From sequence record NC_105436.1: 51,253 nt of DNA; one strand, given 5' to 3'. Below, piece after piece: positions 732 through 51,253 of the stretch. Source of the DNA: a phage. Below the pieces are notes generated by a model. The model made no database searches. It saw only the letters and a list, made by a program, of their open reading frames with translations, and had not been told where the DNA came from. The position numbers and the translations under genes were made by a program. Within the stretch, counting starts at the first letter, position 1. Every line of letters starts with the position of its first letter.

Positions 732-989
732 ATGAAAAAAGAGAGAAGCGTTTATTTAAATGAAACTGGCGAATGGTTGTTATTTCGCGCTATGGTGTGC
801 GATGCACTTGATAAAAATCCTAACGTGAAAAAGATGATTGATTGCGATCCGTGGGAATTTTCAAGCGCATTAGATATGAGCTTTGAGGAGACAAGAAAAC
901 TCCCGCTTGAAAAATGGCACGAACAAATCAGAAATGACATGCAAGAGTTTGTTGATTCGTGGAATTTTCAGCACGGAATGATCCACTAA
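732..989 (+). CDS. hypothetical protein
   Basis: 85-aa ORF starting 4 nt after the Dam stop; no recognisable motif. Confidence 0.5.
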   Translation: MKKERSVYLNETGEWLLFRAMVCDALDKNPNVKKMIDCDPWEFSSALDMSFEETRKLPLEKWHEQIRNDMQEFVDSWNFQHGMIH

Positions 990-1032
990 TATCATTTTTT
1001 GTTAAAACGCCCGGCATTTTGTCGGGCATAAT
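988..1032 (+). promoter_or_regulatory. box cassette: 21-bp box + hairpin spacer + -10-like CATAAT
   Basis: ATCATTTTTTGTTAAAAC then inverted repeat GCCCGGC...GTCGGGC, then CATAAT 22 nt after TTGTTA. Confidence 0.55.
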
Positions 1033-1058
1033 TATTTCATAGAAACGAACGTGAGGAA

Positions 1059-4171: not shown

Positions 4172-4205
4172 AATTTTACCTTTTGGTTGTTTCGTTTCGA
4201 TGAAA

Positions 4206-4253
4206 CAAATATACCCGACACTAGGCCGGGCGTTTTAACAAAAAATGCTATTC
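4206..4253 (-). promoter_or_regulatory. box cassette (minus strand)
   Basis: Minus strand reads ATAGCATTTTTTGTTAAAAC + hairpin + TATATT at 22-nt spacing, then conserved leader. Confidence 0.55.
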
Positions 4254-6341: not shown

Positions 6342-6371
6342 TCGTTAGCTTCTCCTTTGTGGGCCGTAAAT

Positions 6372-6416
6372 TTTAACGGCCCAATACTACCCCGTTTTGT
6401 CAAAAAGTGCTATTTG
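6372..6416 (-). promoter_or_regulatory. box cassette variant (TTGACA in place of TTGTTA)
   Basis: Minus strand AATAGCACTTTTTGACAAAAC, hairpin GGGCCGT/ACGGCCC with TAAAAT in the loop. Confidence 0.5.
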
Positions 6417-7014: not shown

Positions 7015-7043
7015 GATCAGATCTCCTTTGTTTGTTCGATGTG

Positions 7044-7088
7044 ATTATGCCAGGTTTTTACACCTGGCTTTTAACAAAAAGTGCTATT
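7044..7088 (-). promoter_or_regulatory. box cassette (minus strand)
   Basis: Box + hairpin GCCAGG/CCTGGC + CATAAT at 22-nt spacing. Confidence 0.55.
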
Positions 7089-8412: not shown

Positions 8413-8520
8413 TTAAATATCCTCAATTGAAATATGAATGACGTGGCGCTCTTTTTCCGTCGCCGCCGTAATGGTCATTTGCAACCGCTACCATCCAGGC
8501 ATTTTTGAAAATAAATAGCC

Positions 8521-9211: not shown

Positions 9212-9241
9212 CTTTAAATCCTCGTTTGTTGTCGATGGGTG

Positions 9242-9288
9242 TAATATACCATTCAGGAGCACATCGTTTTTAACAAAAAGTGCTATTC
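9242..9288 (-). promoter_or_regulatory. box cassette (minus strand)
   Basis: Box + 22-nt spacer + TATATT + leader CCCATCGACAACAAACGAGGA. Confidence 0.55.
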
Positions 9289-9713: not shown

Positions 9714-9734
9714 ATTTTCAAATCCTCGCATTCG

Positions 9735-9785
9735 TTGTCGATGCGTGTAATGTACAGGAATACGAGGATTGAGTTTTAACAAAAA
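9735..9785 (-). promoter_or_regulatory. box cassette (minus strand)
   Basis: Box + 22-nt spacer + TACATT + conserved leader. Confidence 0.55.
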
Positions 9786-9792
9786 GTGCTAT

Positions 9793-10056
9793 TTAGTCCA
9801 GGAATTCGATTTCACGCTCTCCAGTTAACGGATCTACAAGCCAGAATCCGAGCGGTTCGCCGTGAACACCGCCATAGAATCCAAGCGCCGTCAGATCTTC
9901 ACCTTTAACGAATACCAGATTCCCGCTACGGCTTACGTGAGACACGTTAACGATAACCGGAAATGTGCGATCCTTAAATGCAGGCCGCAGGGCGTAACAT
10001 CCGTTGTTGAGCAAACGTGCTTTGCGCTTAACTGGAATAGGTGCATTAATTTTCAT
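9793..10056 (-). CDS. hypothetical protein
   Basis: 87-aa ORF with RBS AAGGAG. Confidence 0.5.
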   Translation of the reverse strand: MKINAPIPVKRKARLLNNGCYALRPAFKDRTFPVIVNVSHVSRSGNLVFVKGEDLTALGFYGGVHGEPLGFWLVDPLTGEREIEFLD

Positions 10057-10746: not shown

Positions 10747-11018
10747 TACTTCTTGATCTCCTCACTGATAAATTTCAGCACCTGACGCAAGAAAACCTCG
10801 TTGTTGATAGTCGCTGGCAATTCTTCTTTCACTTCTTGCGGCAGATAGATATTGCCGTGCCAGGTCAAGCAATCGTAGTTGATACGATAAGAGCAAAGCC
10901 ACTCGCAATCGTTATCTGCTTCCCAAATACAGAGTTGCAGAACATCGCCAAAATCTTCAACAGTCAGATCCAGACCGTGACGCTTAGCGAAATTGAAAGT
11001 GGTTTTGCTGATGTTCAT
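10746..11018 (-). CDS. hypothetical protein
   Basis: 90-aa ORF, first gene of the leftward block, with box cassette and leader upstream. Confidence 0.5.
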   Translation of the reverse strand: MNISKTTFNFAKRHGLDLTVEDFGDVLQLCIWEADNDCEWLCSYRINYDCLTWHGNIYLPQEVKEELPATINNEVFLRQVLKFISEEIKK

Positions 11019-11047
11019 TGCTATCTCCTGAGCGGTTCGTTTCGATG

Positions 11048-11097
11048 TGTGTAATGTACCCGATCAGGCGGCCTGAGTTTTAACAAAAAGTGCTATT
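11048..11097 (-). promoter_or_regulatory. box cassette (minus strand)
   Basis: Box + hairpin TCAGG/CCTGA + TACATT at 22-nt spacing + leader CATCGAAACGA. Confidence 0.55.
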
Positions 11098-11127
11098 TGA
11101 CGGTTAGCGCCAGGATTGTGATCGAAA

Positions 11128-11215
11128 TAATCAGAAGTAATCATTCGTAATCAAATCACGTCAAAATGATGATTGCCTTTGCAAATTTGATGAGAAAAGT
11201 AATCACGTTTAATCA
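11128..11215. repeat. iteron-like array of five TAATCA repeats
   Basis: TAATCA at 11128, 11138, 11148, 11200 and 11210, with 10-bp phasing within each group; in the divergent non-coding region. Confidence 0.5.
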
Positions 11216-11651
11216 TTGGTTGCAGGGGAGATAGTGAAACCTTCCCCTCTTGCCTCACTTTTCCGCCTGGCTGTCAGTGGTTGTTGTCTTTTGTTCACCC
11301 CTGTTACCGATTTCAGGCGGCGTGTTTCCGCGCGGTTTTCCGGTGTAGCGAAAACGGAAAAAACAAAGAAAATCCTCTATAATACATTGAAAATAAAGAT
11401 TATTTATTTATATATATCTATAATGTTTTCTTTTTGTTCTCACTGTTACAGTGCTTTTTGTTGGGTGTGGTGTGGTTGTGTGTTGGTATATATGGATAGT
11501 TGCGCGCGCGGCGGATTGCATATGTATATATACTTTTTCCGGCGGATTGCGTTAACAGCGTGAACAGAAAAATAACAGCCCTGAAATCAATAACTTGCGC
11601 ATGATTTTGTAGTTTTTCGATATTGGTAACGTTTTGAATACAACAAAAACA

Positions 11652-11680
11652 TTGACACGCACCAAATAGCTTTTATAATG
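11652..11680 (+). promoter_or_regulatory. consensus sigma70-type promoter (TTGACA-17-TATAAT)
   Basis: TTGACA at 11652-11657, 17-bp spacer, TATAAT at 11675-11680; 30 nt upstream of the first rightward gene. Confidence 0.7.
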
Positions 11681-11710
11681 CGCCAACAGTCAACAACCGG
11701 AGGAAAGGAA

Positions 11711-12175
11711 ATGGAACAGAAAACCACTAAGGACTATTGCGATTGGCTTCGCGAGCTTGGTCGCCGCCTGGCTAGTGGCGATATTGAAGAGTATAAAATG
11801 TCACTAATTGACCTGGCCGGAATGTTAAGCGGTGACGACTGCTACAAGATCACGCGCAGTTCATCCTACAGCCGGACCATTATCAACCGCGTTCCAGAAG
11901 TAAGGGCCGCAGGTCGGGTAAGTATCAAGGTCGAGGAAACGGAAGATGATAAATTTTACGTTTTCCGCATGGTCCACGAATCGAAAAGGAAAATCATCAC
12001 ACCCGAAGAATTGCCAGCCATCAAGGCAAGGGCGATCAAAAAGTTTGCCGATCGCTTACTGGCAGCAATCCCGAACATCGTGGACCTGGAAGGGGATAAA
12101 CTGGCTGGAGCTTGTGAGGGCGTAAGCCGCTACCAGGATATGATCCGCGAAATCATCAAAGAGGAGGAGCAATAA
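11711..12175 (+). CDS. hypothetical protein (first gene downstream of consensus sigma70 promoter)
   Basis: Start at ATG 11711 with RBS GGAGG; sits 30 nt downstream of the TTGACA-17-TATAAT promoter. Confidence 0.55.
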   Translation: MEQKTTKDYCDWLRELGRRLASGDIEEYKMSLIDLAGMLSGDDCYKITRSSSYSRTIINRVPEVRAAGRVSIKVEETEDDKFYVFRMVHESKRKIITPEELPAIKARAIKKFADRLLAAIPNIVDLEGDKLAGACEGVSRYQDMIREIIKEEEQ

Positions 12176-12435
12176 TGAAAAAGGCATTAATCGGCGTTTT
12201 GGCGGCAATGGCACTCCTGACCGGATGCGAAAAGGCATCAGAATCAACGGTTGTCGTAGGCGTGGAGTCAGATTTCAAAGTCGGTCGCCTGTTCACTGTT
12301 GACGGATGCACAGCATACAGATTCTATGATAACGGTCGCGCGATCTATTACACCAATTGCAAAGGCGCAACGGATAGCACGTACAACAGCGGAAAGAACG
12401 TAATGCACCAGCAAGTCACAACAGATATTAAATAG
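12175..12435 (+). CDS. putative lipoprotein
   Basis: Signal peptide with lipobox LTGC; 86 aa, two further Cys in the mature part. Confidence 0.6.
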   Translation: MKKALIGVLAAMALLTGCEKASESTVVVGVESDFKVGRLFTVDGCTAYRFYDNGRAIYYTNCKGATDSTYNSGKNVMHQQVTTDIK

Positions 12436-12475
12436 CACTTTTTGTTAAAACGCCAGGCGCAAAGCCTGGCATAAT
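12431..12475 (+). promoter_or_regulatory. box cassette
   Basis: AATAGCACTTTTTGTTAAAAC + hairpin GCCAGG/CCTGGC + CATAAT. Confidence 0.55.
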
Positions 12476-12507
12476 AGCCTCATCGAAACGAGATTGAGGA
12501 AACAAAA

Positions 12508-12693
12508 ATGGCACGTCGCATCACCAAAGACCTTAAAGTCCTGAACAAAGAAAACGTAGTTAAAATCCTGGTTATCTGGGGCTACAACGAAGAAACAGCA
12601 AAGCAGAAGGTAGAGGCAGGTTATGATCTTGCTGTAAAAGCAATGCCAAACGACGACGCCAAAGGCATTGCAAACTATGTAGCGTTCTTTTAA
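12508..12693 (+). CDS. hypothetical protein
   Basis: 61-aa ORF after box cassette. Confidence 0.45.
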   Translation: MARRITKDLKVLNKENVVKILVIWGYNEETAKQKVEAGYDLAVKAMPNDDAKGIANYVAFF

Positions 12694-12708
12694 TTAGCAG
12701 GTGAATAA

Positions 12709-12894
12709 ATGAAAACGAAATTAGTCCATAAATCAGAAATCAAGATTGGCGATACCGTGATTCACAACGGCGAGCTTAGAACGGTTGGCAAAGAGTCAAT
12801 AAGCCACGATGAATTTATGGGGATCTTGTTGTTCGGTGACTCTTATCGTCTTGGTTACAAGATGGTTGAGCTTGTGGAAGAGGTAAAATTCTAA
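12709..12894 (+). CDS. hypothetical protein
   Basis: 61-aa ORF. Confidence 0.45.
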   Translation: MKTKLVHKSEIKIGDTVIHNGELRTVGKESISHDEFMGILLFGDSYRLGYKMVELVEEVKF

Positions 12895-12938
12895 ATAGCA
12901 CTTTTTGTTAAAACTCGAAAACGATAACCAGGCATAAT
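12895..12938 (+). promoter_or_regulatory. box cassette
   Basis: Box + 22-nt spacer + CATAAT. Confidence 0.55.
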
Positions 12939-12993
12939 AAATCACATAGGGCGGCACGGCGTCGCCCAGTTAAACAAATCAGGAGAAAGCACC

Positions 12994-13887
12994 ATGTTAA
13001 AACTTGCTGACATTAAATTCCCGATCACCTTCGAATCTCGCGGCATTGGTCATTACACTTTTACCGATGAAAAAACATGCCATAAGGTTGATATGAATAG
13101 CGACAAATTAAGCCCATCAACAATGGAGATTGAACACTTTATTGATGCGCACAATACGCATTACAACGCACTTAAAGACTACGGCTACGCAATGCCAGGC
13201 TACACATGCTTGCACTACAAGCCATATAAGGGCCAGGTGTTACCAGTGCGCTCACCGGAACGCGCAGAGATTCCGATGGTCCATATGAAAACCTGCGACT
13301 ACAAAAAACTGTGGTGCTTAAGTCTGGACAATATCAAGTATCCGATCACGTTCCACACGACTGGTAAGTCAACGATTCGCTACACATCGCGCGACAATGG
13401 CGTTTATAGCGATGGTACGAAATCAGAGTTGAAAGTCGATTTCTTTGTCAATGGTCACAACAAATTCAATCCGCACAACGAAGAGGATAAAGTGTATTAC
13501 GTGGAAGACATTACAAAACACTTGTTTGGAGAAACTCCATTCGGCGGCGGGAAGACGGCAATTCAGAAAATCATTGGCGAGGAGATCCATAAAGCGGCTG
13601 TCGAAATGAAAGCGCCTGGAGGCTGGCGTATTGACAAGAGCGCCTTTGCCTATCAAGAAATCGTAACGCAGGGCGCGATTGAAGATATGCCAGTTACAGC
13701 CACGCTAAAAGGAGTCCGGCTTGATGACGGCAGTTGGTATGAATTAACGGCTACACCAAAGACGATCGAAATTCATGATGATGTTGTTATCCTTCTGCTT
13801 CACTACGGCGGCACTAAAAACCGGACTGTTGCAGGTGAGATCAGCATCAAGCGCGGAACGATGGTTAAGTGGAAGGTGAAGATTTGA
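12994..13887 (+). CDS. hypothetical protein with internal tandem duplication
   Basis: 297 aa; two related segments (DIKFPITFES...HFIDAHNTHYN and NIKYPITFHT...FFVNGHNKFNPHN). Confidence 0.55.
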   Translation: MLKLADIKFPITFESRGIGHYTFTDEKTCHKVDMNSDKLSPSTMEIEHFIDAHNTHYNALKDYGYAMPGYTCLHYKPYKGQVLPVRSPERAEIPMVHMKTCDYKKLWCLSLDNIKYPITFHTTGKSTIRYTSRDNGVYSDGTKSELKVDFFVNGHNKFNPHNEEDKVYYVEDITKHLFGETPFGGGKTAIQKIIGEEIHKAAVEMKAPGGWRIDKSAFAYQEIVTQGAIEDMPVTATLKGVRLDDGSWYELTATPKTIEIHDDVVILLLHYGGTKNRTVAGEISIKRGTMVKWKVKI

Positions 13888-13963
13888 GTTTGTTCACTGC
13901 GGCGCACGTCGCCGCATGGATCGGATTGTTTGCCTACCTGTTTAGCTTTTATTGAGGTGAGAG

Positions 13964-14116
13964 ATGGCTACATGGATTTTGCTGATTCTTATGATTGATG
14001 GCGGCGTTGACCATATCGAAATGAATAGCCAGCAATCTTGCATTGAGGCACGAGAGCAGATCAAGAACAACAACAGGTTTTATGCGTACACTCGCACGCT
14101 ATGTATTAAGAAATAG
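13964..14116 (+). CDS. hypothetical small protein
   Basis: 50-codon ORF with RBS GAGGTGAGAG; its TAG stop is embedded in the next box. Confidence 0.3.
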   Translation: MATWILLILMIDGGVDHIEMNSQQSCIEAREQIKNNNRFYAYTRTLCIKK

Positions 14117-14155
14117 CACTTTTTGTTAAAACTCAAATGTGGGGCCAGGTATAAT
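14112..14155 (+). promoter_or_regulatory. box cassette
   Basis: Box + hairpin GGCC/GGCC with TATAAT in the loop. Confidence 0.55.
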
Positions 14156-14185
14156 GGCCTCACTTTCAACGAAGGAGATAAAACG

Positions 14186-14416
14186 ATGTACATTAAAAAG
14201 AAGATGAAATGCGTTTCCGTTAACTATGCTTGCTCTGGCATGTTCAAGCCTGGCGAAATCTATACGGCGCAAAAACTGAAAACATCAACCGGATCTTTTT
14301 ACGTGAGCAATAGTAAGGGACATCGCATGTTCCTGAACGGCGGCGAAGGCACTAAGGTTATGGCACACGCTATGGTAATGGCTGAATTTGAGGAGGTGAA
14401 AGATGAAAACAAATAA
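14186..14416 (+). CDS. hypothetical protein
   Basis: Start at ATG 14186 after RBS AAGGAG. Confidence 0.5.
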   Translation: MYIKKKMKCVSVNYACSGMFKPGEIYTAQKLKTSTGSFYVSNSKGHRMFLNGGEGTKVMAHAMVMAEFEEVKDENK

Positions 14417-14624
14417 TCGCGTCAAGCACAGGTTTACTGATAACCAAGGAGACGCGATTGATGTATACAAGTTCGGCGATCGCGTGTTTATTGATGGCAC
14501 GTTTGAAGGTGGTCGCAGGCCGGATTTTAGGTCGATACTTACCGTTGACCAAGTGCGCAAGCTGGCAGATAAGTTAAATGATCTGGCAGATGAAATAGAA
14601 TACAGGCAAATCCATTTTAATTGA
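14403..14624 (+). CDS. hypothetical protein
   Basis: 73-aa ORF with RBS GAGGAGG. Confidence 0.45.
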   Translation: MKTNNRVKHRFTDNQGDAIDVYKFGDRVFIDGTFEGGRRPDFRSILTVDQVRKLADKLNDLADEIEYRQIHFN

Positions 14625-14635
14625 TAGGTTTGATA

Positions 14636-15346
14636 ATGAAAAAATACACTTTCGAACTGTGGGGCAAGAAGTACGAATTAATCACCAGCAAGCCGATTGT
14701 TATCGTTGACCTGGACGGAACACTATCGGACGGTTCGCATCGTTTGCATTTGCTGCCAACTGAAAACTTGCACCTTACGGAATCGTGGCGCGAGTTTAAC
14801 AGGGCCGCCGCCGGAGATTCACCGATTAAAAGCACGATCGCGGTTATTAACGGTTTATGGGTGTCGGGATTTGCCATCGTCATCTTGACCGGACGCAGCG
14901 ACGAGGTTCGCTATGAAACCTGCAAATGGTTGAATGAGAACGGCGTGAAGTTTGACGAAATCATCATGCGCCGCCAGGAGGACAACCGAAAGGATACTGT
15001 TATTAAAGAAGAAGCCTTGCGCGCTATTGGCCTGGACAACATTGTTTGCGCCTTTGACGATTCGCCGAACGTGGTTAAGCACTTCCGCAGCTTGGGGATC
15101 ACAACCTATCAGGTCACGGAATACGACAAGCCACACGCTCACATACAATCTCACGGCGTGGAATCAATAAAGATCACGAAGCGCGCCCGATTCGTCGGCA
15201 GCAAAGACAGCCTGGTCAATGCCAGCTTTATCAAAGGCAAGGTTTATGATGTTCATAGCCATGATAAAAACCGATTCTTTTTGTGGGATGAAAAAGGTTT
15301 TGGCTGGTGCTTTGAACACGACGACGGCGATTTTGTTAATGCGTAA
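14636..15346 (+). CDS. HAD-superfamily phosphatase (nucleotidase or polynucleotide 3'-phosphatase-like)
   Basis: DxDGT motif (VIVDLDGTLSDG) near the N-terminus; start taken at ATG 14636. Confidence 0.6.
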   Translation: MKKYTFELWGKKYELITSKPIVIVDLDGTLSDGSHRLHLLPTENLHLTESWREFNRAAAGDSPIKSTIAVINGLWVSGFAIVILTGRSDEVRYETCKWLNENGVKFDEIIMRRQEDNRKDTVIKEEALRAIGLDNIVCAFDDSPNVVKHFRSLGITTYQVTEYDKPHAHIQSHGVESIKITKRARFVGSKDSLVNASFIKGKVYDVHSHDKNRFFLWDEKGFGWCFEHDDGDFVNA

Positions 15347-15388
15347 TAGCACTTTTTGTTAAAACATCTTAACGGGCTTGCGGTATAG
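15345..15388 (+). promoter_or_regulatory. box cassette
   Basis: Box + hairpin GGGCTT/AAGCCC with TATAGT in the loop + leader CCCATCGACAACGAAAGAGGA. Confidence 0.55.
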
Positions 15389-15420
15389 TAAGCCCATCGA
15401 CAACGAAAGAGGAAACAACG

Positions 15421-15720
15421 ATGTTAGTACGCAATGCGATGTATAAAATCAAATCTGATGAGCGTGTCCACCTGTTTCATGTGAACGAGCACGGCGACCT
15501 TTCGATCGCGATGTACCGTAACGACCGAGGCGGTTGCGAGGAATCAACAGGCGGTAAAGTGCATCCAATGTTTTTCATGTTCCGCCACAAGGCCGATCAA
15601 TACAGCCATCACAACCACTGGATCGGTGACTTGCTGCAATATGGGAAATTGGTTGCGTCGCACGTTGTAGATCCTGGCAAGTTAACCAGCCGCCAGCTTC
15701 GCAAAATGGCGCGCAAATAG
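15421..15720 (+). CDS. hypothetical protein
   Basis: 99-aa ORF after box cassette and conserved leader. Confidence 0.5.
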   Translation: MLVRNAMYKIKSDERVHLFHVNEHGDLSIAMYRNDRGGCEESTGGKVHPMFFMFRHKADQYSHHNHWIGDLLQYGKLVASHVVDPGKLTSRQLRKMARK

Positions 15721-15759
15721 CACTTTTGTTAAAATCAACTTTACGGCCTGCGGTATAGT
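15716..15759 (+). promoter_or_regulatory. box cassette (near-duplicate of 15345-15388)
   Basis: Box (one T shorter) + TATAGT + leader CCCATCAACAACAAACGAGGA. Confidence 0.55.
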
Positions 15760-15790
15760 AAGCCCATCAACAACAAACGAGGATTAAATC

Positions 15791-16054
15791 ATGGCTAACA
15801 AGATCGAATTTTTTAAAGCGGTAGACATTATCGACGGCGCGCCTAGCTTCTTCGCTATCCATTCTATTGACGGCAAGGATATTGGGTACAACGTTATCCG
15901 TCGAGATGGAATATCAAAACTTAGTGACCTGGTAGGCCATATTGTGTCAATCGGGAAATGCGCATGGCCCGATTCGCCACGAGAGCCACGCCGCCGCGAC
16001 ATGGTAGAGCCTGTTCTGCTTTACACTCTGGTAGTAGAAGGAGAAAATAAATGA
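15791..16054 (+). CDS. hypothetical protein
   Basis: 87-aa ORF after near-duplicate box cassette and leader. Confidence 0.5.
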   Translation: MANKIEFFKAVDIIDGAPSFFAIHSIDGKDIGYNVIRRDGISKLSDLVGHIVSIGKCAWPDSPREPRRRDMVEPVLLYTLVVEGENK

Positions 16055-16236
16055 TTTGGTTACTTGCTTTTTTGGTTGTTTTTCTTTACATTTCAGGCTT
16101 GTTTACGTTCCGCGCGTTGGTGAAATATTCTGACACGACAGACAAAGACGATAAAATCGTTCTCGCTTTCTGGTTTGTTTGGGTGTGGTTAGCAATTTAC
16201 GAGATCATCAGAGACAAACAGAAATTTGAGTGGTGA
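16051..16236 (+). CDS. hypothetical membrane protein
   Basis: 61 aa with two hydrophobic helices. Confidence 0.45.
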   Translation: MIWLLAFLVVFLYISGLFTFRALVKYSDTTDKDDKIVLAFWFVWVWLAIYEIIRDKQKFEW

Positions 16237-16293
16237 TTCTTGCTATGGCGCATTCATGCAGTGCGCCATGTTGAGAAAACCTAAAGGGGGGAA

Positions 16294-16446
16294 ATGATGC
16301 GTAACTTTGAAAAAATCATTACCAAAAAGAAGCGTCGCGGGTACGATGAGCATGTGGAGCTTGTGAAAAAGCAACGCAAGAAGCGCAACGAAGACAAGAA
16401 GCGCGGGAAAAAATTTAATGCGATTTTTCGCTATGGAGATCATTAA
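16294..16446 (+). CDS. hypothetical small basic protein
   Basis: 50-codon K/R-rich ORF with RBS AAAGGGGGG. Confidence 0.3.
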   Translation: MMRNFEKIITKKKRRGYDEHVELVKKQRKKRNEDKKRGKKFNAIFRYGDH

Positions 16447-16448
16447 TC

Positions 16449-17039
16449 ATGAAACGAGACATTATTATCCTTAATGGGCCGCCTGGCTGTGGAAAGGACA
16501 CTATTGCAGCTTACCTAACGGGCCATCGTTACCCAGCGGTTAAGGCGTCATTCAAGCAGCCGATGTTCGATATTGCGTTTTCCATGCTGGGCGTGTACAG
16601 ATACGATGAATTTATGGACCTGTACAACGACCGAGAACAAAAAGAAAAGCCTCAAGTTATTTTGGGCGGCAAGTCACCGCGACAATTCATGATCTGGATT
16701 AGTGAGGAGGTCATGAAGCCAGTTTTTGGTGATCACTATTTCGGGCGTCGAATGGTTGAAGAAATTCACGAGATGTACCGAGATTTGGCAGTTGTGATCA
16801 GTGATGGCGGATTCCCCGAAGAAATCAAGCCGCTCGTTAAGGCGGGGCATGAGGTGCATATTTGCCGATTGCATCGCGACGGCTTCACGTTTGCTGGCGA
16901 TTCGCGAAACTATATTGACCTGAGCGGTTATCACTATCGAATCCATCACTATGATTTCCACTTGCAGGATGGCAAGCCTGAACTGGCTGTAAACGAGATC
17001 GTCAATGCTGTCAAATGGAAGCACACAAAGATTAAATAG
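16449..17039 (+). CDS. P-loop nucleotide/nucleoside kinase-like protein
   Basis: Walker A at the N-terminus (ILNGPPGCGKDT); size and motif placement resemble phage dNMP kinases or polynucleotide kinase domains. Confidence 0.55.
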   Translation: MKRDIIILNGPPGCGKDTIAAYLTGHRYPAVKASFKQPMFDIAFSMLGVYRYDEFMDLYNDREQKEKPQVILGGKSPRQFMIWISEEVMKPVFGDHYFGRRMVEEIHEMYRDLAVVISDGGFPEEIKPLVKAGHEVHICRLHRDGFTFAGDSRNYIDLSGYHYRIHHYDFHLQDGKPELAVNEIVNAVKWKHTKIK

Positions 17040-17079
17040 CACGAATTGCTAAACGCGGGGCGCAATGCCTCGCTATAAT
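17035..17079 (+). promoter_or_regulatory. box cassette variant
   Basis: AATAGCACGAATTGCTAAAC + 22-nt spacer + TATAAT. Confidence 0.5.
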
Positions 17080-17109
17080 GCAAACACCAATCAACGAGAG
17101 GAAATCACA

Positions 17110-17490
17110 ATGGTTAACATCCGAAAAATCCGCGTCGGCACTAAATTCTTAGTTACTTACGCAATTCCAGAGAGCGGAATGAAGAAGGGCCAGATTGTTA
17201 AGGTTGATAGCAAAAGGTTCGGAATCCCTGGTATCAATGGCTATCTAATCAATAGAGATCTTGGATTCGACGGATTCGCTATCCGTGCGCTTGAGGGTAT
17301 TGTTGCCACTCTTAAACGAATCACTAATCATCGCGGCTGCCCAATCAAGACGATTAAAGCGCCAGTAAATTACGGCAAACTGGATAATCGTCGAATCCGC
17401 CGCCTGGCGCGTAACGCGTTAAAATTCCGTGGCGTAGGCGATGATTTCTACTGTGGATACAAGAGGATTGCGCGCAATGCTGGGAAATAA
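17110..17490 (+). CDS. hypothetical protein
   Basis: Start at ATG 17110 after RBS GAGAGGA. Confidence 0.45.
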   Translation: MVNIRKIRVGTKFLVTYAIPESGMKKGQIVKVDSKRFGIPGINGYLINRDLGFDGFAIRALEGIVATLKRITNHRGCPIKTIKAPVNYGKLDNRRIRRLARNALKFRGVGDDFYCGYKRIARNAGK

Positions 17491-17516
17491 CAATAACGCA
17501 ACGAATCCTAAGCCAC

Positions 17517-17565
17517 CTTTTGATTTTCATTCCGCAATGATTGCGGTATTATCAATGCTACTTTT
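17517..17565 (+). promoter_or_regulatory. degenerate box cassette
   Basis: CACCTTTTGATTTTC + palindrome CCGCAATGATTGCGG + TATTAT. Confidence 0.35.
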
Positions 17566-17589
17566 TCTTTATAGCATGAGGGCGCTACT

Positions 17590-17853
17590 ATGGTTTTTAA
17601 CGCATTGAAACGACTGTTTAAGCCGGAATACCGGATCGTTGCTTGCACAGAATGCAAGATTTATTATCTGCAACGCCGCCGCGTTATTAGTGGGGATTGG
17701 GAATATCTGACGGATGATGCTTTCGGCTTTTGGGCTATGGAGTTCAATAGCTACAGCGAAGCGCGCGAATACGCTAAAAAGTTGCACAAGTTCAGACCTT
17801 ACAAGCTGCGTTTGCTGGTTGTCAAAAAGTGCGACGTATGGGATCACGAATGA
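17590..17853 (+). CDS. hypothetical protein
   Basis: 87-aa ORF. Confidence 0.45.
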   Translation: MVFNALKRLFKPEYRIVACTECKIYYLQRRRVISGDWEYLTDDAFGFWAMEFNSYSEAREYAKKLHKFRPYKLRLLVVKKCDVWDHE

Positions 17854-18026
17854 AAAGAGTAATTATCACCTTTATTGCCATTATCGCTGGTTCCCACTTG
17901 GCATATGGGTATAGCGGCATTGTTGAGTCAATCGGCGGAATGATTATCTTCCTAGCTGGCGCATGTTACGGCTACGGCGATGGATTTAAAAACGGCAAGC
18001 GTTACATCCTGACCGGGAAGAAATAA
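17850..18026 (+). CDS. hypothetical membrane protein
   Basis: ATGA overlap with upstream stop; two hydrophobic segments. Confidence 0.4.
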   Translation: MKRVIITFIAIIAGSHLAYGYSGIVESIGGMIIFLAGACYGYGDGFKNGKRYILTGKK

Positions 18027-18069
18027 TGTTTAATCGCGCCGCTTCGGTGGCGCTAAAAGGAGGAAAAAA

Positions 18070-18357
18070 ATGGCTAAAAGCAATCGTAAGATGTTGATTA
18101 ACGCATTCGAAAAGGCAGCGCTTGAGCGTGGTTGGAATGACTCATTTCACACGGCAAACTGTATCCGCAGTTACGGATTCAAGAATTGCCGCTCATGGGC
18201 ACGTGAAATGGCGTCATGGTATGATTTTGATGCTCATTACCTTGATATGGATTGCGCCCTGGTTGAAATGATTGAACAGGCAGCATTAGAGGATCGACCA
18301 TTAACGCAATCTGATTTTGACGATTTTGTGCGCGATGAGCTTTACTATCTGAGCTAA
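18070..18357 (+). CDS. hypothetical protein
   Basis: 95-aa ORF with RBS AGGAGG. Confidence 0.5.
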   Translation: MAKSNRKMLINAFEKAALERGWNDSFHTANCIRSYGFKNCRSWAREMASWYDFDAHYLDMDCALVEMIEQAALEDRPLTQSDFDDFVRDELYYLS

Positions 18358-18399
18358 TAGCACTTTTTGTTAAAACTTCCGCAAGGGCATTTGGTAAAG
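18356..18399 (+). promoter_or_regulatory. box cassette
   Basis: Box + hairpin AAGGGCA/TGCCCTT with TAAAGT in the loop. Confidence 0.5.
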
Positions 18400-18432
18400 T
18401 GCCCTTATTGAAGCGAAACAGAGGAAAGCGCA

Positions 18433-18645
18433 ATGAAAATCAAAATCACCAAAATCGACACTATCAACGGCGACGGATCAATCACTCTTGAGCAATGCGG
18501 TTTGGTTGTTGGTGATGTGCTGGAAGTTGATGGACATTTCAGTGACGGATCTTATTGTGTTATTGCGCCGCGTAACAGCGAGTTTATCAAGGCTGGCGAC
18601 AATATTAGTGTTAACCATGACGAATGCGAGGTAGTAGAAGAATGA
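18433..18645 (+). CDS. hypothetical protein
   Basis: 70-aa ORF after box cassette. Confidence 0.45.
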   Translation: MKIKITKIDTINGDGSITLEQCGLVVGDVLEVDGHFSDGSYCVIAPRNSEFIKAGDNISVNHDECEVVEE

Positions 18646-18905
18646 TCACGATTAACCTGTCAGAGCAGCAAGCGCGCATTATGTTAGCGGCCTTTGGCTG
18701 GCGAGATGATGACGGCATCCAGGCAACGGTTAAAATTCCTGAGCCAGTTGCGCGTGAAGTTTTCAGCCAGCTAGAACACGCATTTGATCCTGCTGGGACT
18801 GAGCAAGCGGAAACTGCCGCATGGTTCGGAGAGAACGGATACAGAGATCAGCAAATCGAAAACTGGAAGCGCATAAACGAGACTATGGAGGAATCAGGTT
18901 TATGA
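18642..18905 (+). CDS. hypothetical acidic protein
   Basis: ATGA overlap with upstream stop. Confidence 0.45.
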   Translation: MITINLSEQQARIMLAAFGWRDDDGIQATVKIPEPVAREVFSQLEHAFDPAGTEQAETAAWFGENGYRDQQIENWKRINETMEESGL

Positions 18906-19216
18906 TTTACATTCACTACTACCAAATCGGAACTAACGAGAACAAAAAAGAGCATCGTTTCATCCACGATGATTTGGACAAGGCAAAGGCACAGCAACAG
19001 GTTTTAGGCGGCGTCATTCAGGCTTTTGAGCCTGTAGAAGATATTGAGTACCGCGAGCATTTAAAAGATGTTGTTATTGATGAGATCTCTTGCTTGATTG
19101 ATGATATGACAAATCACGGCCCTGGTTCCCCGTGGGAAGATGCAGGATCTGTAACGTGGGACAAGGCCAAAGTTAAGACGCTAAACAACTTTCGAGAGAT
19201 TCTCGACGGTTTTTAA
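18902..19216 (+). CDS. hypothetical protein
   Basis: ATGA overlap with upstream stop. Confidence 0.45.
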   Translation: MIYIHYYQIGTNENKKEHRFIHDDLDKAKAQQQVLGGVIQAFEPVEDIEYREHLKDVVIDEISCLIDDMTNHGPGSPWEDAGSVTWDKAKVKTLNNFREILDGF

Positions 19217-19286
19217 TTAAAAACGCATAGCCGTTAGAGCGCCTCAATCGCATTCTAACGAGCTATTTTTCTGGTAAGGTGATTTA

Positions 19287-19415
19287 ATGGATGAGTACAA
19301 ACAACCTTCGCAGTGGTGCAAAGAGAAGCAAGAAGAGGCACTGGAGCGCGGAGATGTGGAAGAAGCTATGAACTATTTCAAACTTGCGGAAGAATGGAAG
19401 GGGAGAGGATACTGA
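19287..19415 (+). CDS. hypothetical small protein
   Basis: 42-codon ORF (MDEYKQPSQW...) with RBS AAGGTGA. Confidence 0.3.
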   Translation: MDEYKQPSQWCKEKQEEALERGDVEEAMNYFKLAEEWKGRGY

Positions 19416-19645
19416 TGTTCGGCATGAATGAGGCGCAATTCAACGCAGCTAAACGCCAGGCTAAAAAGTGCGGCGAGGCGATGAAAGCGGATGTGGAAAA
19501 GCGCGGGAAGTATGTTGATGAAGTAATGAAGGGCATCATTGCAGAACACTACCAGCCAATCGCGCCAATGTTGACGATCACTCAATTCATTTGGCTATGT
19601 GGTTACTTGCGTGGACGTTGGGGGAACGCTTTCGACAGGGAATGA
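19415..19645 (+). CDS. hypothetical protein
   Basis: Start at ATG 19415 overlapping the upstream TGA. Confidence 0.4.
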   Translation: MFGMNEAQFNAAKRQAKKCGEAMKADVEKRGKYVDEVMKGIIAEHYQPIAPMLTITQFIWLCGYLRGRWGNAFDRE

Positions 19646-19807
19646 TTGACAACTCTTTCCTGATTGGTTAGCATGGCGTCGTTTACATAAGAGCGGCTTA
19701 GTCCGAACGCGTGACGCGATAGTCACACAACAACGGCGATATGCAGGAGGTTTTTGCAATGCAAAATAATCCGTAAGACGTATCGCCTTTTTTAATGGAG
19801 ATCCAAA

Positions 19808-41403: not shown

Positions 41404-41677
41404 TTTTGCACCTCAAATCAATGAATTTTCTTTCATCTTGCCAACGGTTGATAAATTTAACTTCTTTATTGTCAACGCTCAACCTGTATTGCTTTTGGCT
41501 GAATCTGTTTTCGCGGACCGCATTAATTTTAACTTCATGGAATCCGTTAACAGGGAATGTTTTAACGTTAAATTTTGCCGTGCAATCGATCTCCTTGAAG
41601 TTGCCAGTAGGCGAAGAAGAACATCCGGTCAGAGCGGCTACGGTGGCTATAACTGCGATTAATTTTTTCATCTTCAA
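41396..41677 (-). CDS. putative lipoprotein (candidate superinfection-exclusion factor)
   Basis: Signal peptide with lipobox LTGC; mature part with 3 Cys; RBS AAGGAG; box cassette upstream. Confidence 0.55.
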   Translation of the reverse strand: MKMKKLIAVIATVAALTGCSSSPTGNFKEIDCTAKFNVKTFPVNGFHEVKINAVRENRFSQKQYRLSVDNKEVKFINRWQDERKFIDLRCKNG

Positions 41678-41702
41678 TACTCCTTAGTTGTTGTTGACTG
41701 TA

Positions 41703-41746
41703 ACTATACACGATCCGGCAAGCCGAGTTTAGCAAAAAGTGCTACT
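41703..41746 (-). promoter_or_regulatory. box cassette variant (minus strand)
   Basis: Minus strand AGTAGCACTTTTTGCTAAAC + 21-nt spacer + TATAGT; upstream of the lipoprotein gene. Confidence 0.5.
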
Positions 41747-48680: not shown

Positions 48681-48726
48681 TCATAGCATTTTTTGTTAAA
48701 ACAGTTTATTGTAATGAGTCTATTAT
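48681..48726 (+). promoter_or_regulatory. box cassette upstream of helicase
   Basis: CATAGCATTTTTTGTTAAAAC + 22-nt spacer + TATTAT. Confidence 0.55.
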
Positions 48727-48758
48727 ATACTCCAAATGGCATTTTTTAAAGGTTTAAG

Positions 48759-50756: not shown

Positions 50757-51175
50757 TGGCTATAACTGATAAAGGCGATTATCTTGAGTTTTACGAAAGA
50801 GATCCAACCGACACGAGAAGGGAAGTTAATCACCAGATAGATAGTTTTCAGTGGTTGACTTATGCTCATCCTTATTTGCTGGCGTGGCATACGGTAAACG
50901 AGAATGAGAAGTCTAAAGCAACGGCGATGATTGATCAGCAGTCAGGCTTGGTTAAGGGTGTAAGCGATTTCATCATCCTGATTGGTTTAAACGGAAAATA
51001 CCCATTTGCAGCGATTGAGATCAAGCGAGTTAATAAATCAGGCAAGGGGAAAGCATCACCAGTCAGCGATGAACAAAAGGCTTTTTTGCGTCGAGTTCGC
51101 AGCTTAGGAGGATTCGCTGCGGTCGCCTACGGATTTAATCAGTTTAAGTTGGCTATTGAATACATGCTTAAATAG
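50756..51175 (+). CDS. VRR-NUC domain nuclease
   Basis: PD-(D/E)XK-like core (SDFIIL ... AIEIKR) in a 139-aa protein directly after the helicase. Confidence 0.6.
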   Translation: MAITDKGDYLEFYERDPTDTRREVNHQIDSFQWLTYAHPYLLAWHTVNENEKSKATAMIDQQSGLVKGVSDFIILIGLNGKYPFAAIEIKRVNKSGKGKASPVSDEQKAFLRRVRSLGGFAAVAYGFNQFKLAIEYMLK

Positions 51176-51214
51176 CACTTTTTGTTAAAACTGGCGCGAT
51201 GGATTGCGCCATAA
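51171..51214 (+). promoter_or_regulatory. box cassette at window end
   Basis: Box + hairpin GGCGC/GCGCC + CATAAT; followed by GGAGAAATGA at the very end of the window. Confidence 0.55.
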
Positions 51215-51253
51215 TTCAATAACACGAGATGGCTTTTAATAGCGGAGAAATGA

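What the first reader, a model, noticed from the sequence alone, without database searches (positions are those of the whole stretch)
15345..15790. Conserved 5' leader (ATCGA[A/C]AACGA ... GAGGA) duplicated together with the promoter in front of unrelated genes
Downstream of the -10 elements many cassettes share a leader such as CCCATCGACAACGAAAGAGGAAACAACG-ATG (15389-15420), CCCATCAACAACAAACGAGGATTAAATC-ATG (15760-15790), and minus-strand equivalents near 9212-9241, 9714-9734, 11019-11047 and 4172-4205. The two adjacent plus-strand cassettes are near-duplicates, yet the proteins they precede (15421-15720 and 15791-16054) are unrelated. This suggests mobile promoter-leader modules that capture or shuffle small genes, comparable to promoter stem-loop cassettes described in T4-type phages.
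Basis: partly seen in the sequence, partly recalled or inferred. Interest (0 to 1): 0.6.

Follow-up and report, generated by a model that had tools for sequence, protein, structure and literature searches.

The report
Gene-shuffling promoter cassettes in T1-like phage
The repeated "leader" is the start of the transcript in about 17 copies of an ~80-base promoter-plus-hairpin cassette that sits between the small early genes of this T1-like coliphage, and related phages show that recombination inside these cassettes adds, removes and swaps genes, as described before only for T4-like phages.

Summary
Observation confirmed; interpretation supported. The window is a whole T1-like (Drexlerviridae, Warwickvirus) genome. 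It carries about 17 cassettes with one anatomy. First comes the upstream gene's stop codon fused to a 21-nt box (AATAGCACTTTTTGTTAAAAC). A 19-nt variable spacer follows, usually a G+C-rich hairpin, then a -10 (TAtAaT) and a 6-nt discriminator. Then comes CATCGA(A/C)AACGA, then GAGGA and ATG.

The "leader" is the predicted transcript start plus a ~25-nt A-rich unstructured 5'UTR. The same cassette occurs in T1 and Rtp. Its -10-to-leader core matches the PeSL cassettes of T4-like phage RB49, including an identical 22-mer in front of an unrelated gene, and the mapped start sites of T7 promoters A1 and A3.

In close relatives, gene 15421-15720 is present or absent, and the junction is a chimeric cassette with the crossover in TGCGGTATAGTAAGCCCATC. 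All four combinations of upstream half and leader-plus-gene half exist.

The 21-nt box was published in 2024 as a repeat of unknown function. Its link to a -10, a hairpin, a leader and gene shuffling appears to be new. Promoter activity is inferred, not shown. The -35-like TTGnTA lies 22 nt from the -10, so an extra factor may be needed.

The parts
15344..15346 (+). TAA stop codon of the upstream polynucleotide kinase/phosphatase gene, fused to the box
   Evidence: In every internal cassette the upstream stop is either this TAA or the TAG inside ATAGCAC (read).
15345..15365 (+). 21-nt box AATAGCACTTTTTGTTAAAAC of cassette A. It is the T1-like 'intergenic 21-base repeat' and contains a -35-like TTGTTA and an imperfect dyad TAGCA-N5-TGTTA.
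   Evidence: consensus published for phage TLS (PMC11447400)
15374..15395 (+). Hairpin GGGCTT / AAGCCC with the -10 hexamer in its loop. The 3' arm is the discriminator.
   Evidence: -14.9 kcal/mol, z = -4.3
15384..15389 (+). -10 hexamer TATAGT, 22 nt after TTGTTA
15396..15420 (+). Leader of cassette A. Predicted +1 is the A at 15396. ATCGACAACGA spans 15396-15406 and the Shine-Dalgarno GAGGA spans 15409-15413.
   Evidence: start-site context matches the annotated T7 A1 and A3 starts
15421..15720 (+). Gene A (99 aa, phrog_8382, function unknown). Present or absent among close relatives.
15716..15735 (+). Box of cassette B (AATAGCACTTTTGTTAAAAT, one T shorter). The TAG stop of gene A (15718-15720) lies inside it.
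15745..15764 (+). Weaker hairpin of cassette B around the -10 TATAGT (15754-15759)
   Evidence: -7.0 kcal/mol
15766..15790 (+). Leader of cassette B: ATCAACAACAAACGAGGATTAAATC
15791..16054 (+). Gene B (87 aa, unrelated to gene A). Keeps the same leader in all relatives, behind three different upstream halves.
988..1058 (+). Cassette (box, hairpin GCCCGGC/GTCGGGC, CATAAT, leader ATAGAAACGA)
12431..12507 (+). Cassette. Its leader CATCGAAACGAGATTGAGGAAA (12481-12502) is an exact 22-mer also found in RB49.
12894..12993 (+). Cassette with a long leader. The hairpin lies downstream of the -10.
14112..14185 (+). Cassette (hairpin encloses TATAAT)
17035..17109 (+). Cassette with the perfect-dyad box variant TAGCACGAATTGCTA
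18356..18432 (+). Cassette (hairpin AAGGGCA/TGCCCTT encloses TAAAGT; leader ATTGAAGCGA)
48682..48758 (+). Cassette heading the helicase gene, without a hairpin. The box lies about 14 nt from the start codon of the divergent Cro-like regulator gene (48195-48671, minus strand).
51171..51253 (+). Cassette that runs to the end of the window
4172..4252 (-). Cassette (leader ATCGAAACGAAAC; hairpin followed by a T-rich tail, terminator-like)
6342..6414 (-). Cassette whose box has the consensus TTGACA
7015..7088 (-). Cassette
9212..9287 (-). Cassette (leader ATCGACAACAAACGAGGA). A boundary of the replaced or deleted segment in relatives.
9716..9793 (-). Cassette (leader ATCGACAACGA). The spacer CCTCGTATTC pairs with GAATGCGAGG, which includes the Shine-Dalgarno sequence.
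11019..11097 (-). First cassette of the leftward early operon, with only a weak hairpin
41672..41746 (-). Cassette heading a leftward gene, with only a weak hairpin

Best explanation
The finding is the downstream third of a composite ~80-nt regulatory cassette of the PeSL type (promoter-early stem-loop). About 17 copies lie between the small early genes of this T1-like phage.

Anatomy, in order:
- The upstream gene's stop codon, fused to a 21-nt box. The box also puts stop codons in all three frames.
- A 19-nt spacer holding a variable G+C-rich hairpin.
- A -10 hexamer at a fixed 22 nt from the box's TTGnTA.
- A C-rich 6-nt discriminator.
- The transcript start (A of CATCGA), a ~25-nt A-rich unstructured 5'UTR with GAGGA, and the ATG.

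Inferred working model:
- Host RNA polymerase starts at the A of CATCGA.
- The conserved 'leader' is mainly the start-site context and initial transcribed sequence of a strong early promoter. The rest is an unstructured ribosome-loading region.
- The hairpin lies upstream of that start. It therefore exists only in RNA read through from the gene before, where it attenuates or ends that transcript, or in one case hides the next Shine-Dalgarno sequence. Each gene thus becomes a semi-independent expression unit.

Shown by comparison of genomes: the two conserved patches, the box and the -10-to-leader core, act as short homology linkers. Recombination within them deletes, inserts or replaces genes. 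The leader half stays with the downstream gene and the box-plus-hairpin half stays with the upstream gene.
For: Copy number and anatomy.

Rigid geometry: the TTGnTA-to--10 spacing is 22 nt in the large majority of about 80 box hits across the window, T1, Rtp and herni.

Conservation: the box, the -10, the discriminator and +1 to +8 carry information, while the 13 spacer positions between them carry none. This holds in three subfamilies.

Hairpins:
- Mean z = -2.8 against shuffles, and 68% have z < -1.5.
- The sense strand is more stable than the antisense strand (-9.8 against -7.4 kcal/mol, Wilcoxon p = 2e-7).
- G-U pairs number 49 on the sense strand against 16 on the antisense strand, and GNRA loops occur. 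This points to an RNA-level role on the sense strand.
- The spacer arm covaries with the discriminator: native -12.5 against chimeric -6.6 kcal/mol.
- The three cassettes at operon starts lack strong hairpins.

Start site: the A lies 7 nt after the -10. The annotated T7 A1 start (tacagCC-A-TCGAGAGGG) and A3 start (gtaccaC-A-TGAAACGACAG) have the same context.

Leader: median 25 nt, 49% A, 13% U, MFE -1.4 kcal/mol.

Relation to validated elements: RB49 PeSLs share the consensus tAtAAT-ACaCcC-ATc.aaAc and an exact 22-mer with window 12481-12502 before an unrelated gene. RB49 PeSLs were shown experimentally to be strong promoters and effective terminators (PMC2839356).

Recombination:
- Chimeric cassettes have the crossover inside TGCGGTATAGTAAGCCCATC, and all four combinations of 5' and 3' halves exist.
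- JK16 has a one-cassette deletion with an 80-nt overlap, and there is a box-to-box replacement in tonnikala and FritzSarasin.
- The same leader plus gene sits behind three different hairpins.
- 10 of 48 unique junction ends fall inside cassettes that cover 5.4% of the early region (p = 2e-4).
Against: - No transcript data exist for any T1-like phage in the searchable literature, so promoter activity and the start site are inferred.
- The -35-like TTGnTA is 22 nt from the -10, outside the range sigma-70 normally tolerates. A standard sigma-70 scan does not find these sites apart from one fortuitous TTAAAA-18-TATAAT match at the 14115 cassette. Host polymerase alone may therefore not suffice.
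- Only 2 of the hairpins are followed by a T-rich tail, so most are not classical intrinsic terminators.
- Against the stricter null of 'any gene junction', cassette-bearing junctions are only marginally over-used (13/31 against 27%, p = 0.05; Fisher p = 0.10). Several indels lie at junctions without cassettes.
- Leader conservation is moderate and absent from some cassettes (6411-, 48685+, 51174+).
Confidence: 0.75

Rival explanations
1. The leader is chiefly a post-transcriptional signal. It would be a binding site for a phage or host RNA-binding protein, a translational enhancer (an A/C-rich ribosomal protein S1 loading site), or a 5'-end sequence that slows 5'-end-dependent decay. On this view its conservation owes little to promoter function.
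For: The leader is transcribed, A-rich and unstructured. It stays attached to the downstream gene through recombination. The same ATCGAAACGA...GAGGAA leader occurs in unrelated phage lineages with different upstream promoter halves. From general knowledge, not tested here: A/C-rich leaders enhance translation in E. coli.
Against: The best-conserved positions are -1 to +8, directly at the start site and contiguous with the discriminator. They are not near the Shine-Dalgarno sequence. T7 A1 and A3 share only this start-site part. No Rfam family matches. No candidate binding protein was identified. This reading is compatible with the main explanation rather than exclusive of it.
Confidence: 0.2
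2. The cassettes form a phage-specific regulon. The 21-nt box would be the operator of the family's conserved Cro-like helix-turn-helix regulator (window 48195-48671, T1 gp23 family). Bound at about -43, it would either activate promoters that lack a usable -35, as lambda cI does at PRM or Mu Mor does at Pm, or shut them off later in infection.
For: - The box is an imperfect dyad, TAGCA-N5-TG(T/C)TA, and is perfect in the GAATT and TAATT variants.
- It sits at a rigid distance from the -10, with its centre near -43.
- The -35-like hexamer is mis-spaced for sigma-70.
- The regulator has a Cro-like helix-turn-helix and is found in 829 phage records of ~44-53 kb, the Drexlerviridae genome size.
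- Its start codon lies about 14 nt from a box in the window, T1 and Rtp, a typical autoregulatory layout.
- Boxes also occur in reverse orientation in the late region.
- Only one perfect sigma-70 promoter exists in the early region, at 11652-11679. The TLS authors likewise found only three sigma-70-like promoters.
Against: - There is no binding data.
- The variable positions inside the box keep TTG..A, which is what sigma-70 region 4 reads. One copy is a perfect TTGACA.
- The leftward early operon starts with a cassette (11097-11019) and has no canonical promoter, so at least that cassette may have to fire before any phage protein is made.
- Co-distribution of the box and the regulator is expected for any two family-wide traits.
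Confidence: 0.3
3. The similarity of the leaders has no function. It is only the trace of recent local duplication or gene conversion between neighbouring cassettes.
For: Neighbouring cassettes are the most alike. Examples are 15348 and 15719, and 9284, 9790 and 11094. Recombination between cassettes is demonstrated.
Against: The same motif holds the same position in T1, Rtp, RB49, T7 A1 and A3, and other phage contigs. Meanwhile the spacer only 20 nt away has drifted to zero information. Orthologous cassettes of window and herni keep ATCGAAACGA while the following bases diverge.
Confidence: 0.05
4. The repeats are not promoters at all. They would be transcription stops ('stoperators' or terminators) or UP-type enhancer elements acting on promoters elsewhere, as suggested for phage TLS.
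For: These ideas were offered by the authors who described the 21-nt repeat. Two hairpins look like terminators.
Against: A -10 hexamer follows every gene-proximal box at a fixed 22 nt, and a start-site motif follows 7 nt later. The box lies at -51 to -31, which does not fit UP-element geometry. The core is homologous to RB49 PeSLs with measured promoter activity.
Confidence: 0.05

Closest known systems
PeSLs (promoter-early stem-loop cassettes) of T4-like phages RB49/phi1 (Arbiol et al. 2010, PMC2839356; Comeau et al. 2014, PMC4122927)
   Same: [quoted passage not shown]
- An A/T-rich upstream part and a -10.
[quoted passage not shown]
- A Shine-Dalgarno sequence and ATG at the 3' end.
- Concentration among small genes of unknown function.
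- Indels and replacements between close relatives, with crossovers inside the cassette.
- The sequence from the -10 to about +12 is nearly the same (TAtAAT-ACACCC-ATCGAAACGA). One 22-mer is identical.
   Different: - The host virus is a siphovirus of the family Drexlerviridae, not a T4-like myovirus.
- The upstream half is the 21-nt ATAGCAC...TTGnTAAAA box, with TTGnTA 22 nt from the -10. RB49 has TTGACA at 17 nt.
- RB49's leader ends in AGGAGAATCAAA, while the T1 type ends in GAGGAAA.
- Promoter activity, terminator activity and mini-circles are shown for RB49 only.
The 'intergenic 21-base repeat' of T1-like phages (German et al. 2024, phage TLS, PMC11447400)
   Same: It has the same consensus, aaATAGCACnnnTTGnTAAAA, and the same T, GAA and A sub-types. 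It lies in the direction of transcription, about 76 nt upstream of start codons, at about 18 intergenic copies per genome.
   Different: The paper treats the 21-mer alone and lists its function as an open question, suggesting a stoperator, an enhancer site or a UP element. It does not report the fixed -10, the hairpin, the conserved start and leader, the fusion with the stop codon, the relation to PeSLs, or the recombination junctions.
Early E. coli-polymerase promoters A1 and A3 of phage T7
   Same: The discriminator and mapped start have the same context. A1 is TACAGCC-A-TCGAGAGGG and A3 is GTACCAC-A-TGAAACGACAG. The window has ACACCC-A-TCGACAACGA and (C/T)C-A-TCGAAACGA.
   Different: T7 A1 and A3 have a canonical -35 at 17 nt, no 21-nt box and no cassette hairpin. 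They are not repeated between genes and are followed by long leaders rather than a Shine-Dalgarno sequence within 20 nt.
Activator-dependent phage promoters with a dyad site at about -42 to -43 and no usable -35 (lambda cI at PRM, Mu Mor at Pm). Recalled from general knowledge.
   Same: A dyad element is centred near -43, fixed relative to a -10, with no -35 at 17 nt. A phage-encoded helix-turn-helix protein is available.
   Different: No evidence that any protein binds the box. This is a functional analogy only.

Membership tests
PeSL (promoter-early stem-loop) cassettes | Intergenic element running from the upstream gene's stop codon, in an A/T-rich stretch, to the Shine-Dalgarno sequence and ATG of the next gene | tested here: met
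   In all internal cassettes the upstream stop is the TAA before, or the TAG inside, ATAGCAC. GAGGA and the ATG follow about 75 nt later.
PeSL (promoter-early stem-loop) cassettes | Sigma-70-like early promoter: -35 hexamer, 17-nt spacer, -10 hexamer | tested here: inconclusive
   A -10 is present in all cassettes (TAtAaT, G at -14). A -35-like TTGnTA is present but 22 nt upstream, and the alternative TTAAAA would be at 19 nt. The standard scan finds only the one TTAAAA-18-TATAAT match at the 14115 cassette. Published PeSLs all have N17.
PeSL (promoter-early stem-loop) cassettes | [quoted passage not shown] | tested here: met
   Mean z = -2.8. Both placements are seen. G-U pairs are enriched on the sense strand, and the arms covary.
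PeSL (promoter-early stem-loop) cassettes | Concentrated in plastic regions full of small genes of unknown function | tested here: met
   14 of about 17 cassettes lie in the two early arms, 1-11100 and 12400-18450, among ORFs of 50-165 aa without assigned function.
PeSL (promoter-early stem-loop) cassettes | Insertions, deletions and replacements between close relatives have their crossovers inside the cassettes | tested here: met
   Chimeric cassettes at 15345-15790, a one-cassette deletion with 69- and 80-nt overlaps, and a box-to-box replacement. The enrichment is significant against uniform positions and marginal against gene junctions.
PeSL (promoter-early stem-loop) cassettes | Measured promoter and terminator activity; formation of mini-circles | not testable with these tools
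   Shown only for RB49/phi1.
PeSL (promoter-early stem-loop) cassettes | Sequence relatedness to the RB49/phi1 elements | tested here: met
   This holds for the -10-to-leader half only: a shared consensus and an exact 22-mer. The upstream half is not related.
T1-like 21-base intergenic repeat (German et al. 2024) | Consensus aaATAGCACnnnTTGnTAAAA, intergenic, in the direction of transcription, about 76 nt before a start codon | tested here: met
   20 matches against 0.57 expected. The distance from box start to ATG is 71-100 nt and mostly 74-79 nt, for example 15345 to 15421 = 76 (definition).
Sigma-54 promoters (TGGCACG-N4-TTGCW) | GG and GC doublets separated by exactly 10 nt | tested here: not met
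   The box TAGCACGAATTGCT has AG, not GG, and only 8 nt before GC (read). No enhancer-binding ATPase is annotated in the relatives' gene tables.
Known RNA families (Rfam 15) | Match at the gathering score | tested here: not met
   No match anywhere in the window.

The most novel reading that the evidence does not exclude
The -10-to-leader core (TAtAaT-N4CC-ATCGAAACGA...GAGGA) would be a common adaptor shared by early-gene cassettes of unrelated enterobacterial phages: Drexlerviridae, RB49-like Straboviridae and at least three other lineages, with echoes in T7 A1 and A3. It would let small genes be exchanged between families during co-infection by short-homology recombination. Drexlerviridae would have placed this adaptor under their own control by replacing the canonical -35 with a 21-nt operator for the family's Cro-like regulator.
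Probability: 0.3. Interest if true: 0.8.

Novelty: new variant of a known kind. Interest (0 to 1): 0.6.

Why it matters
Three points.

First, it gives a concrete and testable answer to a question that the authors of the 2024 TLS reannotation listed as open: what the 21-base intergenic repeat of T1-like phages does. The repeat would be the upstream element of about 17-20 promoter-plus-hairpin cassettes, with a fixed -10 and a fixed start site.

Second, it extends PeSL-mediated modular shuffling from T4-like myoviruses to a large family of siphoviruses. More than 800 records in the phage collection carry the family's regulator. The direct evidence is chimeric cassettes found in natural isolates.

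Third, the start-site and leader core is shared, in places base for base, with RB49 PeSLs and other phages. This suggests either a strongly preferred start sequence for E. coli polymerase or a cross-family recombination adaptor.

For phage engineering, the cassettes mark natural, transcriptionally insulated insertion points in T1-like genomes.

Tried and rejected
- **Canonical sigma-70 reading.** No -10 lies 16-18 nt after TTGnTA, and the spacing is 22 nt.
- **UP element.** The box spans -51 to -31, and its A-tract lies at -35 to -32 rather than -44 to -41.
- **Sigma-54 promoter.** The spacing is 8 rather than 10 nt, and the doublet is AG rather than GG.
- **Sigma-32, Fis, IHF and CRP sites.** Compared by eye with the remembered consensus sequences, none fits. 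These comparisons were not scored.
- **Hairpins as classical intrinsic terminators.** Only 2 have a T-rich tail.
- **DNA-level cruciform role.** Disfavoured, because the sense strand folds better and holds the G-U pairs.
- **Leader as a structured RNA element.** Rfam finds nothing, and the leader is essentially unstructured.
- **Gene A and gene B as diverged duplicates.** No similarity.
- **RB49p196 related to the window gene behind the identical leader.** No alignment.
- **Literature searches.** Searches for T1-like promoters, transcriptomes or PeSL-like elements in Drexlerviridae found only the TLS paper. The Rtp genome paper is not held.
- **Breakpoint statistics.** The gene-junction null gave only marginal support. 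I did not fetch more genomes to raise the sample.
Full report
**What the window is.** Megablast of 14000-18000 finds 134 phage records. The best are Escherichia phages tonnikala, Sip, FritzSarasin and tonijn at 95-97% identity, all Drexlerviridae, Tempevirinae, Warwickvirus. The 51,253-nt window aligns end to end with the 51,277-nt tonnikala genome with a shifted start. It is therefore essentially a complete T1-like genome.

**Checking the observation.**
- The strict motif ATCGA[AC]?AACGA occurs 6 times against 0.23 expected in dinucleotide shuffles. Five of the six lie at the same place relative to a -10 hexamer.
- Relaxed versions fill that position in four more cassettes.
- The upstream box AGCACTTTTTGTTAAAA matches 20 times with up to 3 mismatches, against 0.57 expected.
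- The two focal cassettes are 63/77 identical.
- Their downstream proteins are unrelated and belong to different PHROG families.

**Anatomy.** Lining up all copies gives one architecture.
- The upstream gene ends either in the TAA directly before ATAGCAC or in the TAG inside it. TAAATAGCACTTTTTGTTAAAA carries stops in all three frames.
- Next comes the 21-nt box, then 19 nt of variable sequence, then a -10 hexamer (TATAGT, CATAAT, TATATT, TACATT) with G at -14.
- A mostly C-rich 6-nt discriminator follows, then C-A-TCGA(A/C)AACGA.
- Last come GAGGA (or AGGAG) and the ATG.
- The distance from TTGnTA to the -10 is 22 nt in the large majority of about 80 box hits in the window, T1, Rtp and herni.
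- Information content is high in the box and the -10, moderate (0.4-0.9 bit) in the discriminator and +1 to +8, and zero across 13 spacer positions. That spacer serves as an internal neutral control.

**The hairpin.**
- Folding the stretch between the box and +2 gives hairpins in most cassettes: mean z = -2.8 against shuffles, with 68% below -1.5.
- The 3' arm either abuts the -10, or it forms the discriminator so that the -10 sits in the loop.
- The sense strand folds better than the antisense strand (-9.8 against -7.4 kcal/mol, Wilcoxon p = 2e-7). It holds 49 G-U pairs against 16, and some loops are GNRA. The structure is therefore selected in sense-strand RNA.
- Swapping spacers between cassettes destroys the fold (-12.5 native against -6.6 chimeric). 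The discriminator therefore covaries with the spacer arm.
- The hairpin lies upstream of the predicted start, so only read-through RNA from the preceding gene contains it.
- The three cassettes that head operons (11094-, 41743-, 48685+) lack strong hairpins (Mann-Whitney p = 0.04, small sample).
- In cassette 9790- the read-through RNA sequesters the next Shine-Dalgarno sequence in a -18.6 kcal/mol stem. The cassette's own transcript is open, at -1.9 kcal/mol.
- Only two hairpins have a T-rich tail. Most would be attenuators or 3'-end structures rather than classical terminators.

**The leader.**
- The A of CATCGA lies 7 nt after the -10, the usual start position.
- In phage T7 the annotated starts of the E. 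coli promoters are the A in tacagCC-A-TCGAGAGGG (A1) and in gtaccaC-A-TGAAACGACAG (A3). This is the same context.
- From that A the leader has a median length of 25 nt, with 49% A and 13% U, and is essentially unstructured (MFE -1.4 kcal/mol, no more stable than its own shuffles (z +0.6)).
- No Rfam family matches.
- I read the conserved part as start-site context plus initial transcribed sequence, followed by a plain ribosome-loading region. That the initial transcribed sequence influences promoter escape is general knowledge, not tested here.

**Spread within the family.**
- Phage T1 (Tunavirinae) and Rtp (Braunvirinae) carry 13-15 cassettes each with the same box. The sub-types are TTTTT, GAATT and TAATT, and the latter two make a perfect dyad TAGCA-N5-TGCTA.
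- They show the same spacing, GGGG..CCCC-type hairpins, and leaders such as TACCCC-ATCGACAACGAACGAGGA and TACCCC-ATCGAAACGAAACGA.
- The 2024 reannotation of phage TLS describes the 21-mer (aaATAGCACnnnTTGnTAAAA) as 18 intergenic copies about 76 nt before start codons. It offers stoperator, enhancer or UP-element ideas and lists its function among open questions. It does not mention a -10, a hairpin, a leader or recombination.
- No other paper in the searchable library mentions the repeat.

**Relation to PeSLs.**
- The published description of PeSLs in RB49/phi1 lists a stop codon in an A/T-rich stretch, -35 and -10 boxes, a stem-loop with G-T pairs between the boxes or over the -10, and a Shine-Dalgarno sequence and ATG. 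This fits the T1-type cassettes point for point, except for the -35.
- A 50-aa gene of the window (9563-9715, minus strand) is 60% identical to RB49p053, so I read RB49 itself.
- Its PeSLs are TTGACA-N17-(C/T)ATAAT-ACACCC-AT(C/A)(G/C)AAACGA...AGGAGAATCAAA-ATG. The -10-to-+12 consensus matches the Drexlerviridae one.
- Window 12481-12502, CATCGAAACGAGATTGAGGAAA, is an exact 22-mer upstream of RB49p196. The two downstream proteins cannot be aligned. Random expectation for shared 20-mers is nil.
- RB49 PeSLs have measured activity: the stem-loop of PeSL211/210 lowers lacZ like rrnB T1, and PeSL206/205 gives about 13,000 Miller units.
- Neither PeSL paper mentions T1-like phages or a conserved leader.
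- A scan of IMG/VR for CCATCGAAACGA-N0-6-GAGGAA found 16 loci. Eight are T1-type. Five lie in other phage contigs of 22-183 kb, with a -35 at 17 nt and the same start, some with a hairpin around the -10. Three are chance hits in G+C-rich coding DNA.

**Recombination.** Nine Tempevirinae relatives were aligned to the window.
- Gene A (15421-15720) is present in FritzSarasin and MikeNSara. It is absent from the other seven.
- In those seven genomes one cassette aligns to both window cassettes, with a 69-nt overlap (six of them) or as a y-b chimera (JK16).
- The single cassette of tonnikala, Sip, tonijn and EC167 is a chimera. It has the 5' half of window cassette A (GTTAAAACATCTyAACGGGCTT) joined to the leader of cassette B (AACAACAAACGAGGATTAAATC). 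The crossover lies inside the shared TGCGGTATAGTAAGCCCATC.
- Three 5' variants (x, y, z) and two leader-plus-gene variants (a, b) occur as x-a and z-b (window), x-b (tonnikala), y-a and z-b (FritzSarasin, MikeNSara), and y-b (herni, JK16).
- On the minus strand, JK16 lacks the two genes between cassettes 9790- and 9284-, with an 80-nt overlap. Tonnikala and FritzSarasin have a different 707-nt insert between the same two boxes.
- The gene at 9014-9211 keeps the leader ATCGACAACAAACGAGGATTTAAAG behind three different hairpins.
- Herni and the window share everything up to TATATTTGTTTCATCG at cassette 4249- and then diverge into different genes.
- So the box and the -10-to-leader core are the homology patches. 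The leader half travels with the downstream gene.
- Ten of 48 unique junction ends lie inside cassettes that cover 5.4% of the early region (p = 2e-4). Against a null of gene junctions the excess is marginal (13/31 against 27%, p = 0.05; Fisher p = 0.10). Several indels lie elsewhere, for example 8573|8729, 9096|10676 and 16438|16444.
- The gene A family is patchy across 264 Drexlerviridae records.

**What remains unexplained: the box.**
- TTGnTA behaves like a -35. TTG and the final A are kept, the middle varies, and one copy is TTGACA. Yet it lies 22 nt from the -10.
- The standard scan finds the cassettes only once (TTAAAA-18-TATAAT at the 14115 cassette). It finds a single perfect promoter in the early region, TTGACA-16-TATAAT at 11652-11679, heading the rightward operon.
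- The box is also an imperfect dyad centred near -43. The family-wide Cro-like regulator starts about 14 nt from a box in the window, T1 and Rtp. Reverse-oriented boxes occur in the late region.
- A factor-dependent promoter class is therefore a serious complement to the main explanation. I rate it at about 0.3. Nothing here tests binding.

**Verdict.**
- The element is a Drexlerviridae variant of the PeSL type of cassette, built on the published 21-nt repeat. Its -10-to-leader core is shared with RB49 PeSLs and other phages.
- Shown: the anatomy, the conservation, the sense-strand hairpin selection, the cross-family sequence identity and the chimeric recombination junctions.
- Inferred: promoter activity, the start site, hairpin attenuation, and what the leader contributes to transcription as opposed to translation.

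Noticed in passing
window 11652-11679 (+): The only perfect sigma-70 consensus promoter in 1-20000 (TTGACA-16-TATAAT, 12/12). It heads the rightward early operon. Its discriminator and start, GCGCCAAC-AGTCAACAACCGGAGG, are followed by an ATG at 11713.
   Followed up: partly
window 11100-11650: A non-coding region of about 550 nt lies between the two divergent early operons. It holds four or five (G)TAATCA repeats (11136-11215), A/T-rich TATATATA stretches, and two copies of CGGCGGATTGC (about 11509 and 11540). It could be an origin or packaging region. Alignments with relatives break here (11468|12161).
   Followed up: no
window 30949-30965 (-) and 27199-27215 (-); T1 (L005) 18848 and 15084; herni (L007) 36169 and 32409: Boxes lie in reverse orientation inside the plus-strand late region, at conserved positions in three genera. 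The one at 30965 is followed at 22 nt by TAGATT and then by the two-way terminator GGGGCGCAACGCCCC. It could therefore give a ~40-nt antisense RNA. On the plus strand the box sits directly before the Shine-Dalgarno sequence of the next late gene.
   Followed up: partly
window 22572-22650 (+): A perfect-dyad box variant, TAGCACTAATTGCTA, is followed after 8 nt by TATAAT and then by a strong terminator, AAGGCTGGATTTTTCCAGCCTTTTTT. It lies between the large terminase and portal genes. A transcript starting at this TATAAT would begin inside the terminator's 5' arm.
   Followed up: no
window 9563-9715 (-): A 50-aa gene (MVTLITWEHENSQ...) has homologues in 463 phage records. They include Klebsiella weberviruses, Kagunavirus, RB49-like myoviruses (60% identity), and Aeromonas and Vibrio phages. 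It is a small gene shared across families.
   Followed up: partly
window 9724-9767 (-): In cassette 9790- the spacer CCTCGTATTC pairs with GAATGCGAGG, which contains the Shine-Dalgarno sequence. Read-through RNA folds to -18.6 kcal/mol and the cassette's own transcript to -1.9 kcal/mol. Translation of this gene may therefore be limited to its own transcript.
   Followed up: partly
window 46224-46687 (-, inside ORF 44486-47128): Tandem 21- and 63-nt repeats encode [14 protein letters not shown]-type repeats in the 880-aa lateral tail fibre protein.
   Followed up: no
window 4380|4408 and 1431|1471, compared with L001 and L009: The relatives carry extra genes at junctions without a cassette. Tonnikala has an HNH endonuclease of about 540 nt, and EC167 has a 486-nt ORF. 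Homing-type insertion therefore acts alongside cassette recombination.
   Followed up: no
window 7313-7334: An exact 22-mer is shared with RB49, inside the cytosine methyltransferase gene (RB49p189 homologue). This is coding-sequence conservation and has nothing to do with the cassettes.
   Followed up: no
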